Below, piece by piece: positions 42,313 through 53,186 of a stretch of 64,000 nucleotides of DNA (positions within the stretch are counted from its first letter, which is position 1; each line of letters starts with the position of its first letter). Source of the stretch: an uncultured Gammaproteobacteria bacterium. GTDB taxonomy: Bacteria; Pseudomonadota; Gammaproteobacteria; UBA9214. Under the pieces are notes generated by a model. That model saw nothing but the letters and a program-made list of their open reading frames with translations, was not told the origin of the DNA and ran no database searches. The stretch covers positions 1-64,000 of the forward strand of contig CAVYZN010000028.1 of the NCBI GenBank assembly GCA_963773065.1, written 5' to 3'. The translations under genes were made by a program, and so were the position numbers.

Positions 42313-42479
42313 ACCGGCGGTGACCGCACCACTGAAGAATGGATGGGGTCACCCCTTAGCCAGCCGGTGTTAACAGCGTAAGTAAAGCTCTGTTGAACAT
42401 GTCAACATCATAAAACAACAATGCCATTGATACGGTCCTTTCGCACCCGCTTTTTCACTGAGCGTGATGTCGCGGCATA

Positions 42480-42742
42480 ACCCTGCGCATCAGTCACCCC
42501 TCTGGATCAAGATCGAATCGATGGTCTGATTCAATCCCTGGTACCGTGGGTACCCCACAAAATACTCGGTACCGTCCAGCGTCCAAAAATGAGCATCACA
42601 GAATGTATGGCTGGCCCGAAGGCCTCCAACCCTTGGGTGGCTCGCTGGACGGGCGAAGGGCGTATTCAATGGCCGGCCGGGACCTCCAATCAGAATCTCA
42701 TGGTTGTACCAACCCCATTGCCTGGCTGATCCCGGCCGCCAA
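42480..42742 (-). ncRNA. Putative bridge/seek RNA of the IS110 element (ends approximate)
   Basis: Two stem-loops whose internal loop strands match the target flanks (ATGGGGT, GATTCTGA) and the donor junction (GGATT, AGGGGTGA). Confidence 0.65.
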
Positions 42743-42744
42743 TC

Positions 42745-43752
42745 TTAACCGAACAGACGCGCGGCATCGTAATGGGTCTGATCGCGTAACATGCAGTAAC
42801 TGGCGCGGGCCAATTTGTGCGCCACCGCCCGGATCGCGACGATACCGCTGGTCTGCGCGCGCTTGCGCTCAAAGAAGCGCTTGGCCCGCGCATCAAAGCG
42901 CACGGCGAAGTGGGCCGCTTCGGAGAACGCCCAGGACAGGTACTTGTTGCCGGCCTTGCGGTTGCCTTCGCCCTTCTTCTTGCCGTTGCTGAGGCGCTCG
43001 CTGTTGACGCAGCGGCAGTACGAGGCGTAATTGCCTGGGCTCTTGAAGCGGGTAATCTCGCCCGTCTCAAGCCAAATGGTCATGCCCAGAATCGGCCCCA
43101 CGCCGGTGATGGTCTGCAAAATCTTAAAGGCCGGCGCCACCCGCGCCGCCGCCAACGCGGCCTGTTCCAGCTCGTCAATCTCCCGCTGGAGCGCCCGCTG
43201 CACGCTCAGCAGGCTCTGCGCCGCCAGCTGGTCGTGCCCGGGCGGTAACGGCACGGCAAACTCCGGCTTGCGTATCAGGCTTGCGCTGATCCGCTCTCCG
43301 GTAGAACGCCAGAGCTGGCTCTGAATGCTGATCAGGCGTCCCGCCGCGATCCGCACCAGTTGCATGCGCCGGCGCAGCAGATCGCGCACCGCGCGTTGCT
43401 CCTTGGGATAAATATACCCCGTCGGCAGTATCCCCAGGCGCATCAGGTGCGCCAGCCAGAACGCATCGTGAAGGTCATCGCTGTACTTCAGGCCCTCATA
43501 CTGGCGCACCGCCGCGGTGTTGACCAACCGCAGCGGGTAGCCGGCATCCTGCAATCCATCCACCAGCCAGTACCAATTGAAGGTCGATTCCACGGCAACC
43601 CCCAGCAGCTCCGCCTTGAACGGCTGCAAGGCCTTCAGCGTCACCGCCAGATCATTGGGCAGCCGCCGTTCAAAAACCCGTTTGTCATCCTCATCAATCA
43701 CCACAACGACGTGGTTGTTGGAATGCAGATCAATCCCGCAGTAAAGTGTCAT
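42745..43752 (-). CDS. IS110-family transposase/recombinase (335 aa)
   Basis: GIDLH, AVES, KYSDDLHDA (DEDD domain), TITGVG, LSNG, AVAHKLAR; GGAGG RBS. Confidence 0.95.
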   Translation of the reverse strand: MTLYCGIDLHSNNHVVVVIDEDDKRVFERRLPNDLAVTLKALQPFKAELLGVAVESTFNWYWLVDGLQDAGYPLRLVNTAAVRQYEGLKYSDDLHDAFWLAHLMRLGILPTGYIYPKEQRAVRDLLRRRMQLVRIAAGRLISIQSQLWRSTGERISASLIRKPEFAVPLPPGHDQLAAQSLLSVQRALQREIDELEQAALAAARVAPAFKILQTITGVGPILGMTIWLETGEITRFKSPGNYASYCRCVNSERLSNGKKKGEGNRKAGNKYLSWAFSEAAHFAVRFDARAKRFFERKRAQTSGIVAIRAVAHKLARASYCMLRDQTHYDAARLFG

Positions 43753-43922
43753 AACAGCCTCCTGGGTTGTGTTGAGTGACCAACACCAGTGTATACACCG
43801 GTGCCAACCACTCAGGAGGCTGGCTAGAGGATTATCAGACTCGATTGATCGGATGCACGAAAAACCGTGGTCTGTCCCGATTTTCCCGAAGGGGACGCCA
43901 CAAATCGCCAAGGAGATGAGAG

Positions 43923-46206: not shown

Positions 46207-46334
46207 GGATGGGGTCAGACTCGATTGATCGGATGTGAATTTCCCTATTGGGAATGGATGGTGGATGGGAATCAATCGAAGGAAATGGGGGACAGACCAC
46301 GTTTTGACTAAAAACGTGGTCTGTCCCCCATTTC
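46207..46334. repeat. REP cluster next to the RAYT gene
   Basis: ggatggggtcagactcgattgatcggatg (46207-35); inverted pair gaaatgggggacagaccacgtttt/aaaacgtggtctgtcccccatttc (46282-46334); related copies at 43861-86 and 47128-49. Confidence 0.88.
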
Positions 46335-47025
46335 GCCCCGGCTTTGCCGGTCTTCCCGCATTTCCGGGCATGACGCGTCGTTGCAGCATGCAGGAGACTT
46401 CTACCTTGAAGCGGTCGTTACCCAGGGCGTAATTGCCATTGGTGGCGGTACGAATTTCAGCGATCAGGTTAAGGTCAATGCCGGTGTCAAACAGACGCCG
46501 GTAATTGGCAAGACGCGATGCCTCCGTCTCGACGAGCGCCAGGTATTCGGCATGCGGCGTCAGCCCGTCTCGGCGCGAGCCCTGACCGTTGGCAGGGTAG
46601 CTTGACCAGCGGTATTCCGCCGGGTGTGTCGCCATGCCGGCGCGCACCGGGTTCATTTCGATATACCGGTAACAGGCGAGTACATAGGTGCTTTCCTGAA
46701 CCAGGCAGGAACGGAAGCGGCCTTCCCAGAGAGTGCCGCTGCGCCGGTAGCTGCGGTTGATGTATTGGATATAACGCTGACCGAGGTGTTTCATCAATAG
46801 CGCGGCGCTATTATGTCGTTCCGGGGTGAGGAGCAGGTGTACATGATTTGTCATCTGGCAATAGGCATGTATCCTGCAGCCATAGTTAACAGCCTGCTGA
46901 GCCAGGGTATCGAGATAATAGTAGTGGTAATCGCTGTGGTCGTAGAAGCAGGCGGTGCGATTATTGCCACGCTGGATGATATGCCAAGGTATGCACGGTA
47001 CGACCAGACGGGCACGACGCGGCAT
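46308..47025 (-). CDS. REP-associated tyrosine (HUH/Y1) transposase, RAYT
   Basis: MPRRAR, HIIQRGNNR, MTNHVHLL, LWEGRF, YIEMNPVRA, YRWSS; the ORF as read runs to 45832, but removing one G from a G5 run gives a stop at 46308. Confidence 0.92.
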
Positions 47026-47090
47026 ATGAGGTACCTGTATCAGGACAGATCGAGTGTCGTGATGGTGGACGCATGGACAAGGAGGGTCTG

Positions 47091-48611
47091 TCAGTCACGC
47101 GAGTACCGTCGCGTCAGGAAACCATGGAAACGTGGTCTGTCCCCCATTTGCCACACCAGCAGCAGGCACATCACGGTCAGGATCACGACGGGCGTATTGC
47201 CCAACAGCACATAAGGCGTCGCGCCCTGGCGGGGCGTGACGGTTCCCGTGACCACCGCCTCCTCGAACTGGCGGCTGCGGGCGATGACCCGGCCGTTCTC
47301 ATCGATGATCGCGGATATGCCCGTATTGGTGGCTCGCAGCATGGGCCGGCCGGTTTCCTTGGACCGCAGCCGCGCCATTTCCAGGTGCTGGTGCGGCGCG
47401 AGCGAATCGCCAAACCAGCCATCGTTGCTCACGTTGACCAGCAAGGCGGCCTGCGGCAGTGCCCGACGGATCTCCTCGCCGAATACCACCTCGAAACAGA
47501 TCGAGGTGGCCACGGGATAGCCGGCGGCCTCCAGCAGGGGTTGCGTCGCCTCCCCGCCGGAGAAATCCGCATTCGGCACCGCCAGGGCGTCCAGGCTGTC
47601 GCCCAGCACCCGGCGCAGCGGCAGGTACTCGCCGAACGGCACCAGGTGCTGCTTGTAGTAGAAGCGCCGTTCCCCGCCGATGGACACCACGCTGTTGTAG
47701 TAGCGCCAGGTGGCCTGGTCCAGCACCGGAATTCCGGTCAGCAGCACGGCGCCCGACTGGCGCAGCCCGGTTTCGATTTGCGGGATGAGGCTGTCCTGCA
47801 CCTGGTCATAAAACGCGGGTATGGCGGTTTCGGGCCAGACCACCACATCCGTCGCCGGCAATTTGAAGGTGAGTTCCGTATAGCGCGTCAGGGTATGGGT
47901 CAGGTTTCCCGGCGCCCATTTGGTTTCCTGGGCGATGTTCCCCTGAACCAGCGCCACCTTGAGAGGCGCGCCGCGCGCTTCGGTCCATGCAACACGGTCG
48001 AGCAGGTAGCCGCCCGCCCAGATCACGCAGAGGACGATCAGACTCGGCAGGCGCGCCCGGTTTCGCACCAGCGCCACCAGCAAGGCGGCCGTCAGCGCCA
48101 CGGCCAGCCCGACGCCATAGACTCCCGAGAGCGGCGCGTAGCCGGCCAGCGGGCCGTCAATCTGGCTGCTCCCGACAGTCAGCCAGGGAAAACCGGTGAA
48201 CAGCCAGCCGCGCAGCCATTCACTCAGCACCCAGCCGGCCGGAAACGCGACCAGGAGCCGCCAGTCCGCAGCCGGCAGGCAGCGCTTGAGACAATAACCC
48301 AGCAAGGCGGGATACAGGCTCAGAAAGACCACCAGCGCCACCGTCACCAGCACGGCAGCCGGCGCGGGTACATGCCCGTAGGTATGCACGCTGACGTACA
48401 CCCAGGAAACACCCGCGCCGAAGTACCCCAGTCCGAACAGGACACCGTGGCGCAAAGCCTGGCGCGGGCTATCCCGCAGCCACTGGTTGAACAGCACGGC
48501 GAGCGACAGAAACGCGAGCGGGTACCAGCCCAGGGGGGCGAAGGCGGTCACGCCCAGCGCGCCGGCAATCAGCACGAAGATCCCGCCGAAGCGGACAGTC
48601 AGGTTGGTCAC
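47091..48611 (-). CDS. lnt: Apolipoprotein N-acyltransferase
   Basis: FTGFPW, VQGNI, WPETA, KQHLVPFGEY, ICFE, SNDGWF. Confidence 0.96.
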   Translation of the reverse strand: MTNLTVRFGGIFVLIAGALGVTAFAPLGWYPLAFLSLAVLFNQWLRDSPRQALRHGVLFGLGYFGAGVSWVYVSVHTYGHVPAPAAVLVTVALVVFLSLYPALLGYCLKRCLPAADWRLLVAFPAGWVLSEWLRGWLFTGFPWLTVGSSQIDGPLAGYAPLSGVYGVGLAVALTAALLVALVRNRARLPSLIVLCVIWAGGYLLDRVAWTEARGAPLKVALVQGNIAQETKWAPGNLTHTLTRYTELTFKLPATDVVVWPETAIPAFYDQVQDSLIPQIETGLRQSGAVLLTGIPVLDQATWRYYNSVVSIGGERRFYYKQHLVPFGEYLPLRRVLGDSLDALAVPNADFSGGEATQPLLEAAGYPVATSICFEVVFGEEIRRALPQAALLVNVSNDGWFGDSLAPHQHLEMARLRSKETGRPMLRATNTGISAIIDENGRVIARSRQFEEAVVTGTVTPRQGATPYVLLGNTPVVILTVMCLLLVWQMGDRPRFHGFLTRRYSRD

Positions 48612-52471: not shown

Positions 52472-52644
52472 TCAACTTAAGAAAGGTTTCGGAACTGCCT
52501 CAATATACTTTGTTCACTGGCCTATTTCCATGCGGGATATTCCCGCCGGCGAAACCGGATTGGCCATATAAACACACGGAAAAAATACGAACCCGACGCA
52601 ATGAAGACATTATTATTCCGTGTGCTTCCGTAGCTGAATCAGTA

Positions 52645-53056
52645 GGGAGCCGGCCGGTAAGCCGGGTTCTGTCGTGGACAGCCATTCATCTGGGATGCAC
52701 GTCACCGCGCACCTCAAGCAACCTACCCGGGAACCATGCGGGCCGCATGATCGTTCCCCTATTTGGTCTTGCTCCGGGTGGGGTTTTCCCTGCCACGTCT
52801 GTTGCCAGACGCGCGGTGCGCTCTTACCGCACCATTTCACCCTTACCGACACCAACGCGCCGGCGGTATATTTTCTGTGGCACTTTCCGTAGGCTCGCGC
52901 CTCCCAGGCGTTACCTGGCACCCTGCCCTGTGGAGCCCGGACTTTCCTCCAGGAAAATGGGGGCAGAGTCAATCTTGTTGGTGATAATCAATGCCGAAAA
53001 CTGGCAAAATAATTGACTCTGACCCCATTTTCCCAGCGACTGTCTGGCCGACTCCC
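52645..53056 (-). ncRNA. rnpB: RNase P RNA, class A
   Basis: GAGGAAAGTCCGGGCTC, AGTGCCACAGAAA, GGTAAGGGTGAAA, ACAGAACCCGGCTTA; complementary ends GGGAGTCGGCC/GGCCGGCTCCC. Confidence 0.98.
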
Positions 53057-53186
53057 GGTGATGATTATAGATGAATGCACCGGATCCGACAGTGACGGCG
53101 ACGGCTAAACATCATGTTTTAATCAAGAAAAGTGTCCTATCTATCTGTTCTCACTCATGTATGGATCAATCGGATGGGATGCGGCG

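What the first reader, a model, noticed from the sequence alone, without database searches (positions are those of the whole stretch)
52949..53036. RNase P RNA P3 helix is a REP-like element carrying the IS110 target motif
Seen: between CAGTCGC and GAGGAAAGTCC, where P3 lies, the RNA reads GGAAAATGGGGTCAGAGTCAAT-(38 nt AT-rich)-ATTGACTCTGCCCCCATTTTCC, a 22-bp inverted pair with one mismatch. It resembles the REPs at 46207 (atggggtcagactc) and 46282 (gaaatggggg). Known: P3 varies in length and tolerates insertions. Inference: a REP doublet has been absorbed as a structural helix of an essential ribozyme. It contains ATGGGGTCAGAgTC, which fits the predicted guides as well as the used site does, so rnpB may be a potentially lethal target of the IS.
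Basis: partly seen in the sequence, partly recalled or inferred. Interest (0 to 1): 0.7.

Follow-up and report, generated by a model that had tools for sequence, protein, structure and literature searches.

The report
REP-like long P3 helix in rnpB
The RNase P RNA gene of this uncultured gammaproteobacterium carries an unusually long P3 helix that its whole genus shares and keeps base-paired, that probably began as a copy of a genomic REP repeat, and that still holds the sequence at which an insertion element in the same window has integrated elsewhere.

Summary
rnpB lies at 53055..52642 on the minus strand (Rfam RF00010, 342 bits). Its P3 (53036..52949) is a 25-bp helix with one U/C mismatch and a 38-nt AT-rich tip, about 70 nt longer than the model.

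It is not a recent insertion. All same-genus genomes with this part of rnpB assembled, plus 15 metagenome contigs, carry it (18 distinct sequences). 99.2% of pair cells are paired, and 5 pairs show compensatory changes. Other genera of the family have short P3 helices.

The 22-mer is unique in the genome. Even so, the 5' arm matches REP family A at 16 of 18 bases. It is the best non-family match to a REP-A weight matrix among 7.68 million genome positions. REP-A is a true REPIN family: inverted arms flank a RAYT gene in a relative, and it occurs in 34 of 41 family genomes. REP origin at the base of the genus is likely (about 0.6) but unproven.

The IS1111-type element in the window interrupted a REP-A arm at GAGTC-TG-ACCCCAT. 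The guides I predict in its 3' end co-vary with the target in a related IS. They fit the P3 arm at least as well as the used site. The hazard to rnpB is real in sequence only.

RNA data gave no cover of the extension.

The parts
52642..53055 (-). rnpB, bacterial class A RNase P RNA, 414 nt. It is the only copy found in the genome.
   Evidence: RF00010, 342 bits (gathering score 100), E 2e-111, model 1-367, not truncated; 1 match in G000; rnpA is present on C31.
52949..53036 (-). The whole P3: a 25-bp helix with one U/C mismatch and a 38-nt tip.
   Evidence: fold -43 to -46 kcal/mol, z about -5.5. (27 consensus pairs including 2 outside P3; 99.2% of cells paired across 18 sequences).
53011..53033 (-). 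5' arm of the extension (RNA GGAAAAUGGGGUCAGAGUCAAU). Positions 53028..53011 match the REP-A 18-mer at 16 of 18.
   Evidence: 2 mismatches. (20.2 bits, rank 14 of 7,681,408 positions; the 13 above it are REP-A copies).
52952..52973 (-). 3' arm of the extension (RNA AUUGACUCUGCCCCCAUUUUCC). It carries C where the REP head would have A, which gives the U/C mismatch.
   Evidence: its reverse complement scores 4.7 bits, and 111 genome positions score as high or higher.
52974..53011 (-). 38-nt tip, 37% G+C, with only a 4-bp hairpin predicted. It is variable between lineages.
53015..53028 (+). GACTCTGACCCCAT on the + strand: the left flank, TG core and right flank of the IS target. It is one of 4 intact sites of the form GA.TCTGACCCCAT in the genome.
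   Evidence: 4 sites: C8 twice, C28:46222, C28:53015. for the target and the guides.
46209..46230 (+). Intact arm of REP family A (ATGGGGTCAGACTCGATTGATC).
   Evidence: 0 mismatches.
46282..46334 (.). Hairpin of REP family B (GGAAATGGGGGACAGACCACG...). A further B arm lies at 47128-47149, so the two bracket the RAYT gene.
46380..47025 (-). RAYT-like Y1 transposase gene.
   Evidence: Y1_Tnp, 47.9 bits. (E 5.1e-12).
42350..43837 (-). IS110-family element of the IS1111 type, about 1.49 kb, single copy. It sits inside a REP-A arm: GAGTC-TG-[IS]-TG-ACCCCAT. Transposase CDS 43752..42745. 9-bp subterminal inverted repeats TAGCCAGCC / GGCTGGCTA.
   Evidence: junctions. (43835-43855 is 100% identical to 46215-46235). 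(single copy). (DEDD_Tnp_IS110 and Transposase_20).
42670..42741 (-). Predicted target-binding loop of the IS's guide RNA: a stem, then an internal loop with CAAUGGGGU (42720..42712), a small hairpin, and GAUUCUGAU (42697..42689).
   Evidence: fold. (the related IS in L078 has the same architecture, with both segments changed to fit its own flanks). (published architecture).

Best explanation
The interval is a lineage-specific expansion of helix P3 of the catalytic RNA of RNase P.

Shown: it is inherited vertically in a genus-level clade of uncultured Gammaproteobacteria. It is kept as a long RNA helix by compensatory evolution on the rnpB sense strand.

Inferred from general knowledge of the bacterial enzyme: P3 points away from the catalytic core. 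The extension is therefore most likely carried in the RNA as a solvent-exposed rod. Selection keeps it paired so that about 70 extra nucleotides do not disturb folding.

Inferred origin, odds about 0.6: a REPIN (inverted REP doublet) of REP family A entered the P3 loop in the clade's ancestor. That family is moved by a RAYT transposase and is present throughout the bacterial family. The copy then stopped being a repeat and evolved as RNA. The lineage of this window is the most REP-like of the three lineages seen; whether that is the ancestral state is not settled.

Consequence, shown in sequence only: the 5' arm still carries GA.TC-TG-ACCCCAT. This is the site at which the window's IS1111-type element integrated into a REP-A arm. 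The element's predicted guide segments fit the P3 arm at least as well as the site it used. An insertion there would split the only rnpB found in an assembly that is about 91% complete.
For: Structure and age. All 5 loci of genus g1 that cover P3 (4 genomes) have the extension; the 33 other loci printed have a P3 of roughly 14-45 nt. The extension was also found on 15 metagenome contigs and 5 genome contigs, giving 18 distinct sequences. RNAalifold predicts 27 pairs, 5 of them with changes on both sides. 99.2% of cells are paired, against 35-62% when the partner is slid by 1-3 columns, and 0 of 500 shuffles reach the observed covariation score. From the per-pair table I count many G-U cells (30 in columns 16-32) and only 2 A-C cells, which points to selection on the sense RNA. 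All six variants folded give a long helix, z -5.2 to -8.8. The miaB tree puts the extended-P3 rows in one clade (97/98).

REP link. The arm matches at 16 of 18, and the window holds 2 hits where 0.04 are expected. A weight matrix built from the 12 REP-A arms ranks the P3 arm 14th of 7,681,408 positions; it is the best site that is not a REP-A copy. In 15 of the 16 distinct full-length rnpB sequences the sense-strand best match lies in the same register, with 14 to 793 genome positions scoring as high or higher; the exception, L056, has 7,693. The distance between the outer ends (ATGGGG...CCCCAT, 72 nt) resembles that of REP-A doublets (about 75-80 nt). REP-A occurs in all 5 g1 genomes and in 34 of 41 family genomes. 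In G014, inverted REP-A arms flank a Y1_Tnp gene.

IS link. Guides and target co-vary in a 67%-identical IS. The P3 arm is 1 of 4 matching sites in the genome. LTG/RTG pairing rules come from passages of PMC11208160.
Against: The 22-mer is unique, and blastn-short with the whole P3 finds nothing but itself at E up to 1. So the element is not a current member of any repeat family.

The tip shows no likeness to REP-A spacers, which are themselves variable. The distal part of the arm (GAGTCAAT, nearly invariant in all 18 sequences) differs from REP-A (ACTCGATTGATC).

Most lineages are less REP-like. By my count they match at 12-14 of 18. Their matrix scores (58-793 genome positions score as high, except L056, where 7,693 and 2,148 positions do) are not significant on their own once the roughly 800 positions of rnpB are allowed for.

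The rnpB core tree is unresolved. The miaB grouping of the G000 and G001 types has only 81/84 support. Parsimony leaves 2 of the 5 variable arm positions ambiguous and makes U at position 2 derived in this lineage. The ancestral arm therefore matched REP-A at somewhere between 13 and 16 of 18.

The base of P3 (CUGGGAAA) also differs from the outgroups, so a simple insertion into an old loop is not visible.

Nothing shows that the IS is active (single copy; not found in 5 relatives). Its guides are predictions.
Confidence: 0.55

Rival explanations
1. The likeness to REP-A is chance or convergence. P3 grew by other means, such as slippage, duplication or capture of unrelated DNA. A G-rich stem with a CAGA turn merely happens to resemble the REP head, most strongly in this lineage.
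For: The 22-mer is unique and BLAST finds no hit. Only 2 of 18 distinct sequences have the strongly REP-like arm. The other types score weakly. U at arm position 2 is derived by parsimony on the tree. The distal arm and the tip are unlike REP-A. Several other hairpins in the genome share the head GGGGTCAGA, so the motif is not rare.
Against: The P3 arm is the single best non-family match to the REP-A matrix in 7.68 million positions. The window holds 2 hits against 0.04 expected. By my calculation with equal base frequencies, even the most pessimistic ancestral arm (13 of 18) has a chance probability of about 0.005 over the roughly 150 positions of the insert. Hairpin size matches the REP doublets. 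REP-A was already present in the family.
Confidence: 0.3
2. The extension is an intervening sequence. The long duplex is cut out of the precursor by RNase III, as in 23S rRNA, and leaves a two-piece RNase P RNA held together by P1-P3. Pairing would then be conserved for processing, not for a rod in the mature enzyme. This concerns the fate of the insert, not its origin, so it can hold together with REP descent.
For: The duplex is 25 bp and nearly perfect. Pairing is conserved while the sequence drifts. A conserved irregularity lies at one place: a U/C mismatch in G000, and a bulged A or U in most of the G002 group, by my reading. That 23S rRNA intervening sequences behave this way is recalled, not checked here.
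Against: There is no data either way. The four metatranscriptome runs laid gave no contig over the extension, which says nothing. No fragmented bacterial RNase P RNA turned up in the searches, none of which was aimed at that question.
Confidence: 0.15
3. It is a recent REP or REPIN insertion specific to this genome, which is the literal reading of 'has been absorbed'.
For: The arm in this genome is the most REP-like of all.
Against: The same extension, at the same place and with partly alignable tips, occurs in all same-genus genomes that cover it and on 15 metagenome contigs. The neighbouring miaB and glgA proteins there are only 80-93% identical to this genome's, apart from the near-identical L048, and the helix shows compensatory changes.
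Confidence: 0.02
4. The extension has gained a function of its own: a binding site for a protein, as eukaryal P3 binds Pop6/Pop7, or a tertiary contact.
For: It has persisted across a genus with conserved pairing. The G002 group keeps an inner hairpin. Eukaryal P3 is a protein-binding extended helix (passages of PMC2858038).
Against: The tip is the least conserved part and differs between the three types. No conserved loop motif is shared by all 18 sequences. In this genome the tip is mostly unpaired.
Confidence: 0.08

Closest known systems
Bacterial class A RNase P RNA (Rfam RF00010) with a variable P3
   Same: Full-length match with all core helices, the GAGGAAAGUCC of P4, its own -10 box (TATAAT) just upstream, and rnpA in the genome. 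P3 length varies among relatives, from about 14 to 45 nt.
   Different: P3 is 86-96 nt here. That is about 70 nt more than the model and the longest among the 38 loci compared.
STRR repeats inside rnpB of heterocyst-forming cyanobacteria (Vioque 1997, Nucleic Acids Res 25:3471)
   Same: [quoted passage not shown] I saw only the title, in a reference list.
   Different: Those are short tandem repeats. From memory they lie in P12, but the paper is not held and I could not check. Here the element is a palindromic REP-like doublet in P3, unique in its genome, and shows covariation.
REPINs and their RAYT transposases (Bertels and Rainey; PMC3116915, PMC3337134; abstracts seen)
   Same: Two inverted arms with a spacer. 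The head resembles a family (REP-A) whose inverted arms flank a RAYT gene. The family is old and widely shared among related genomes, in line with the abstracts' statement that REPINs persist for millions of years.
   Different: REPINs are extragenic and multi-copy. The P3 element lies inside an RNA gene, is single-copy and evolves under RNA pairing constraint.
IS110/IS1111 elements that integrate into REPs under RNA guidance (IS621, PMC11208160, passages; ISPpu9, PMC12288879, abstract)
   Same: DEDD and Transposase_20 domains. Long 3' non-coding end and 9-bp subterminal inverted repeats. Insertion into a REP. An internal loop with two segments that fit the two target flanks and that co-vary with the flanks in a relative.
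   Different: In the predicted loop, the segment complementary to the right flank comes first. The core appears to be TG, not CT. All of this is prediction; no RNA or activity data exist. I did not find a described potential target inside an essential RNA gene (search only).
Intervening sequences of 23S rRNA, and palindromic elements inside Rickettsia genes (both recalled, not checked here)
   Same: Extra hairpins tolerated at peripheral places of essential RNAs or genes.
   Different: No processing data exist for this element. It is a different RNA and a different repeat family.

Membership tests
RNaseP_bact_a (RF00010) | Covariance-model score above the gathering threshold over the whole model | tested here: met
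   342 bits against 100, model 1-367, not truncated.
RNaseP_bact_a (RF00010) | P3 hairpin between P2 and the P4 strand GAGGAAAGUCC | tested here: met
   One search aligns 9 P3 pairs on either side of a 68-nt insert. Searches confirm the pairing across 18 sequences.
RNaseP_bact_a (RF00010) | Protein partner RnpA encoded in the genome | tested here: met
   PF00825, 95.7 bits, on C31. No PIN_5 (HARP-type) match was found in an assembly that is 91% complete; the link between PIN_5 and HARP is recalled.
REP / REPIN | Many near-identical copies in the genome | tested here: not met
   with up to 4 mismatches only the two arms themselves are found; no other hit at E up to 1.
REP / REPIN | Two inverted arms with a short spacer that form a hairpin | tested here: met
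   22-nt arms, 1 mismatch, 38-nt spacer. The size resembles REP-A doublets.
REP / REPIN | Sequence membership in a family tied to a RAYT | tested here: inconclusive
   16 of 18 identities over the head. Rank 14 of 7.68 million positions, but 20.2 bits against 31.5-46.9 for the true copies. The distal arm differs. REP-A itself flanks a RAYT in G014.
REP / REPIN | Extragenic location | tested here: not met
   It lies inside rnpB.
Target site of the window's IS1111-type element | Match to core and flanks of the used site and to the predicted guides | tested here: met
   Used site GAGTC-TG-ACCCCATCC, P3 arm GACTC-TG-ACCCCATTT, guides CAAUGGGGU and GAUUCUGAU. By my count the P3 arm pairs with 8 of the 9 bases of the first guide and the used site with 7.
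Target site of the window's IS1111-type element | Actual integration at the site | not testable with these tools
   None of the 24 rnpB loci with a complete extended P3 holds an IS. A lethal insertion would not be seen in any case.
RNase III-excised intervening sequence | Absence of the insert from the mature RNA | tested here: inconclusive
   no contig of 4 metatranscriptome runs covers the extension.

The most novel reading that the evidence does not exclude
A REPIN was captured in the P3 loop of RNase P RNA at the origin of a genus and became a permanent expansion segment of the ribozyme. Because it kept the REP head, the essential gene remained a cognate target for RNA-guided IS1111 elements that home to that REP. 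The compensated drift of the arms away from the REP consensus in most lineages is then an escape from this hazard. That would be a case of a mobile-element target shaping the evolution of a catalytic RNA.
Probability: 0.12. Interest if true: 0.7.

Novelty: new variant of a known kind. Interest (0 to 1): 0.5.

Why it matters
Helices of RNase P RNA are known to vary, but the source of the extra RNA is rarely traceable. Here the likely donor, a REPIN family with its RAYT transposase, is still present in the same genomes. The product can be followed through 18 diverged sequences with compensatory changes. That makes this a usable example of how an expansion segment of a ribozyme may arise from selfish DNA.

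It also gives a natural test for off-target risk of RNA-guided IS110/IS1111 recombinases. An essential single-copy gene carries a site that fits the guides as well as a site that was actually used.

For annotation, the roughly 70-nt insert is a genus marker. It may also break assemblies: one relative's rnpB is cut at a contig end at a point consistent with a break at or near P3, though the cause was not examined.

Tried and rejected
RNA evidence. I looked for metatranscriptome runs (24 listed, 11 holding half or more of the sampled words). I laid four of them from four studies on 52600-53100. Hundreds to thousands of contigs of many organisms' rnpB covered the conserved core. No contig covered 52974-53024. 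The joints across P3 carried 14-15 other letters, which are short P3 helices of other bacteria. This says nothing about expression or processing of the extension.

rnpB core tree. Too few differences; it is a polytomy inside the clade. I replaced it with the neighbouring miaB gene.

Integron idea. REP-A hits cluster in arrays with one gene between hairpins in G014. I therefore asked whether they are attC sites, and whether the IS belongs to the attC-targeting IS1111 group (that group is recalled, not read). Pfam found no integrase among the 10 ORFs tested. It found a Y1_Tnp gene bracketed by inverted REP-A arms. The hairpin of the C8 copy is a perfect palindrome. I rejected the attC reading in favour of REPIN/RAYT.

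Other steps. Rfam at E up to 1 on the IS region gave only a chance snoRNA hit, so the guide loop rests on folding and comparison. A DNA search for the IS in 5 relatives found nothing. The rnpB length of 349 listed for G001 did not fit the sequence, which is 420 nt with the extension.

Full report
WHAT IS THERE. The interval lies inside rnpB. Rfam's RNaseP_bact_a model matches 53055..52642 on the minus strand at 342 bits (gathering score 100), over the whole model. 68 nt in the P3 loop have no counterpart in the model. The RNA reads CGC-UGGGAAAAUGGGGUCAGAGUCAAU-(38 nt)-AUUGACUCUGCCCCCAUUUUCCUG-GAGGAAAGUCC. The two 22-mers are inverse complements with one mismatch. The 38-nt tip has 14 G+C by my count. 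The region folds at -46.2 kcal/mol, z = -5.5, and 0 of 200 shuffles fold as well.

IT IS OLD AND KEPT AS RNA STRUCTURE. I searched rnpB in 41 genomes, the window's own plus 40 relatives; 39 had a match. I read the P3 region of 38 loci. The 5 loci of the window's genus (G000, G001, G002 and two contigs of G003) carry the extension. The other 33 have a P3 of about 14-45 nt. G004's rnpB is cut by a contig end and lacks this part.

A pattern for the start of the extension found 15 metagenome contigs and 5 genome contigs. 24 of the 25 loci then examined had a complete P3. After dropping identical rows there are 18 distinct sequences.

RNAalifold predicts 27 pairs, 5 of them with changes on both sides: C-G/U-A, G-C/A-U, A-U/G-C and others. 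On that structure 99.2% of 485 cells are paired, against 35-62% when partners are slid by 1-3 columns. 0 of 500 shuffles reach the observed covariation score or the number of doubly changed cells, and 7 of 500 reach the number of such pairs. These shuffles do not correct for relatedness.

In the per-pair table I count 30 G-U cells in columns 16-32 and only 2 A-C cells. This fits selection on the sense RNA and not on a DNA hairpin of either strand. Six variants each fold into the long helix, z -5.2 to -8.8. The tips differ. In this genome the tip is AT-rich and mostly open. In G001 the extension is almost a continuous rod. The G002 group has an inner hairpin.

WHO HAS IT. The rnpB core cannot resolve the clade. 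The neighbouring genes are syntenic (miaB, a small TPR-like gene, glgA). A miaB tree of 17 rows puts the 12 extended-P3 rows in one clade (97/98), with the root set on 5 short-P3 genomes. Inside it are a weakly supported pair (G000 type with G001 type, 81/84) and a well-supported G002-type clade (99/99). Rows without miaB on their contig (L046, L047, L051, L052, L056, L058, L061, G003b) are not in this tree. The simplest reading is one gain at the base of the genus.

THE REP LINK. The 22-mer is unique. blastn-short with the whole P3 finds nothing else at E up to 1.

The genome nevertheless has two repeat families with the same head. Family A is (g)TCAATGGGGTCAGACTCGATTGATC, mostly as inverted pairs with a variable spacer; it has 12 arms in this genome at up to 3 mismatches, and 0 for the reversed control pattern. 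Family B is GGAAATGGGGGACAGACCACG, whose copies bracket a RAYT-like gene at 46380-47025.

Family A is a true REPIN family. In G014, inverted A arms bracket a Y1_Tnp gene (E 4.4e-14), next to a row of A doublets with one gene between each. It occurs in all 5 genomes of the genus (8-33 arms in the other four). It occurs in 34 of 41 genomes of the family, including genera with a short P3. So the second half of the refutation test fails, and family A is more widely distributed than the extension.

The P3 5' arm matches the A head at 16 of 18 (ATGGGGTCAGAgTCaATT). In the window that gives 2 hits where 0.04 are expected. A weight matrix from the 12 A arms ranks the P3 arm 14th of 7,681,408 genome positions. 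The 13 above it are the 12 training arms and one more obvious copy. The score, 20.2 bits, is well below the true copies (31.5-46.9).

In 15 of the 16 distinct full-length rnpB sequences the sense-strand best match lies in the same register, but it is weaker (14-793 genome positions score as high). L056 is the exception, with 7,693 positions scoring as high. The reverse complement of the G001-type 3' arm has 58-66.

By parsimony on the three arm types, this genome's states at positions 6, 7, 9 and 11 are among the most parsimonious ancestral states under any of the three topologies. U at position 2 is derived or ambiguous. This is my reasoning. The ancestral arm thus matched family A at 13 to 16 of 18. 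With equal base frequencies, 13 of 18 or better has a probability of about 3.4e-5 per position, or about 0.005 over the roughly 150 positions of the insert (my calculation).

Against descent: the distal arm (GAGTCAAT, nearly invariant) is unlike family A. The tip is unlike any spacer. The base of P3 also differs from the outgroups. I put REPIN descent at about 0.6 and chance or convergence at about 0.3.

THE IS. A 1.49-kb element lies at about 43837..42350 on the minus strand. Its transposase (43752..42745) has DEDD_Tnp_IS110 and Transposase_20 domains. It has a short 5' end, a 3' non-coding end of about 390 nt, and 9-bp subterminal inverted repeats. These are the traits of the IS1111 group as described in PMC11208160 (passages). 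It is single-copy and was not found in 5 relatives.

Its flanks are the two halves of a family A arm: GAGTC-TG-[IS]-TG-ACCCCATCC. 43835-43855 is 100% identical to 46215-46235.

The 3' end folds into a stem enclosing an internal loop with CAAUGGGGU, a small hairpin, and GAUUCUGAU. The first segment is complementary to ACCCCATTG, the right flank in the family A consensus. The second has the sense of the left flank GAGTCTGA plus the first base of the IS. [quoted passage not shown]

A protein search of 54 family genomes found 3 relatives. The 67%-identical one (L078) sits in a different palindrome. Both of its segments are changed to fit its own flanks: CUGGGGAC for TCCCCGG, and UAUACUGAU for TATACTGA. 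This co-variation supports the assignment and a TG core.

Against these guides, by my count:
- the P3 arm on the + strand (GACTC-TG-ACCCCATTT, 53015-53031) pairs with 8 of the 9 bases of the first guide, and has a G-U wobble where family A has a mismatch in the second;
- the used site pairs with 7 of the 9.

GA.TCTGACCCCAT occurs 4 times in the genome: both arms of the C8 doublet, the arm at 46222, and P3. The other P3 arm has C next to the core and fits worse.

Whether the element is active, and how many mismatches it tolerates, is unknown; IS621 tolerates few. rnpB is single-copy. rnpA is present, and no PIN_5 (HARP-type) protein was found in a 91%-complete assembly. An insertion would very probably be lethal, which is inference.

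HOW IT MOST LIKELY WORKS. Shown: P3 is a conserved long helix within the rnpB gene. Inferred: it stays in the RNA as a peripheral rod that is kept paired so as not to disturb folding. That P3 is peripheral in the bacterial enzyme is established knowledge, not tested here; that eukaryal P3 is an extended protein-binding helix comes from passages of PMC2858038. Removal by RNase III, as for rRNA intervening sequences, cannot be excluded. The RNA runs laid gave no cover.

KNOWN AND NEW. P3 variation is ordinary. A repeat family inside rnpB has a precedent in cyanobacteria (Vioque 1997; only the title seen; paper not held). IS110-family insertion into REPs is known (abstracts, passages). My searches listed nothing on a REP-like doublet as P3 of RNase P RNA, nor on covariation in such an element. 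I judge it a new variant of a known kind, of moderate interest.

Noticed in passing
window 46209-47149: A RAYT-like Y1 transposase gene (46380-47025, minus strand) is bracketed by REP family B arms (46282-46334 and 47128-47149). A REP family A arm lies directly beside them at 46209. This looks like a REP/RAYT unit with two REP families side by side.
   Followed up: partly
window 42670-42741 (minus strand): Predicted guide RNA loop of the IS1111-type element. In it, the segment complementary to the right flank precedes the segment matching the left flank. The apparent core is TG. A possible donor loop further 3' (around GGGAUUGAAUCAGAC ... AGAGGGGUGAC) was not worked out.
   Followed up: partly
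L075 (G014:C5:226000-242000): A row of at least 7 REP-A doublets, all in one orientation, with single unrelated genes between some of them (glycine transporter, SOUL, HNH-repeat protein and others). It lies next to a RAYT gene and looks like an integron cassette array. No integrase was found among the 10 ORFs tested.
   Followed up: partly
G000 C8:170273, C11:293737, C11:350889, C16:77303, C32:85684, C1:62839, C20:45838: Further long hairpins share the head GGGGTCAGA[CG] but have other arm sequences. They may be additional REP classes. The genome has 10 Y1_Tnp matches.
   Followed up: no
G000 C6:236944-238900: GGGGTCAGAG recurs five times at exact 489-bp spacing, which suggests a tandem repeat of about 489 bp.
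   Followed up: no
G003 (C88 and C433); G004:C31:1-143: G003 holds two different extended-P3 rnpB copies on two contigs, so it is probably a mixed bin. G004's rnpB is cut by a contig end at model position 72, downstream of P3, which is consistent with an assembly break at or near the REP-like hairpin. The cause was not examined.
   Followed up: no
row G001:C80:8540-8888: The listed rnpB span (349 nt) is shorter than the gene seen in the sequence (420 nt with the extension). The coordinates of that table can under-report genes with large inserts.
   Followed up: yes
L078 (G043:C95): A 67%-identical IS1111-type element is inserted in a different palindrome (GGAATTCCGGGGAC ... GTCCCCGGAATTCC). 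Its guide segments are changed to match.
   Followed up: partly
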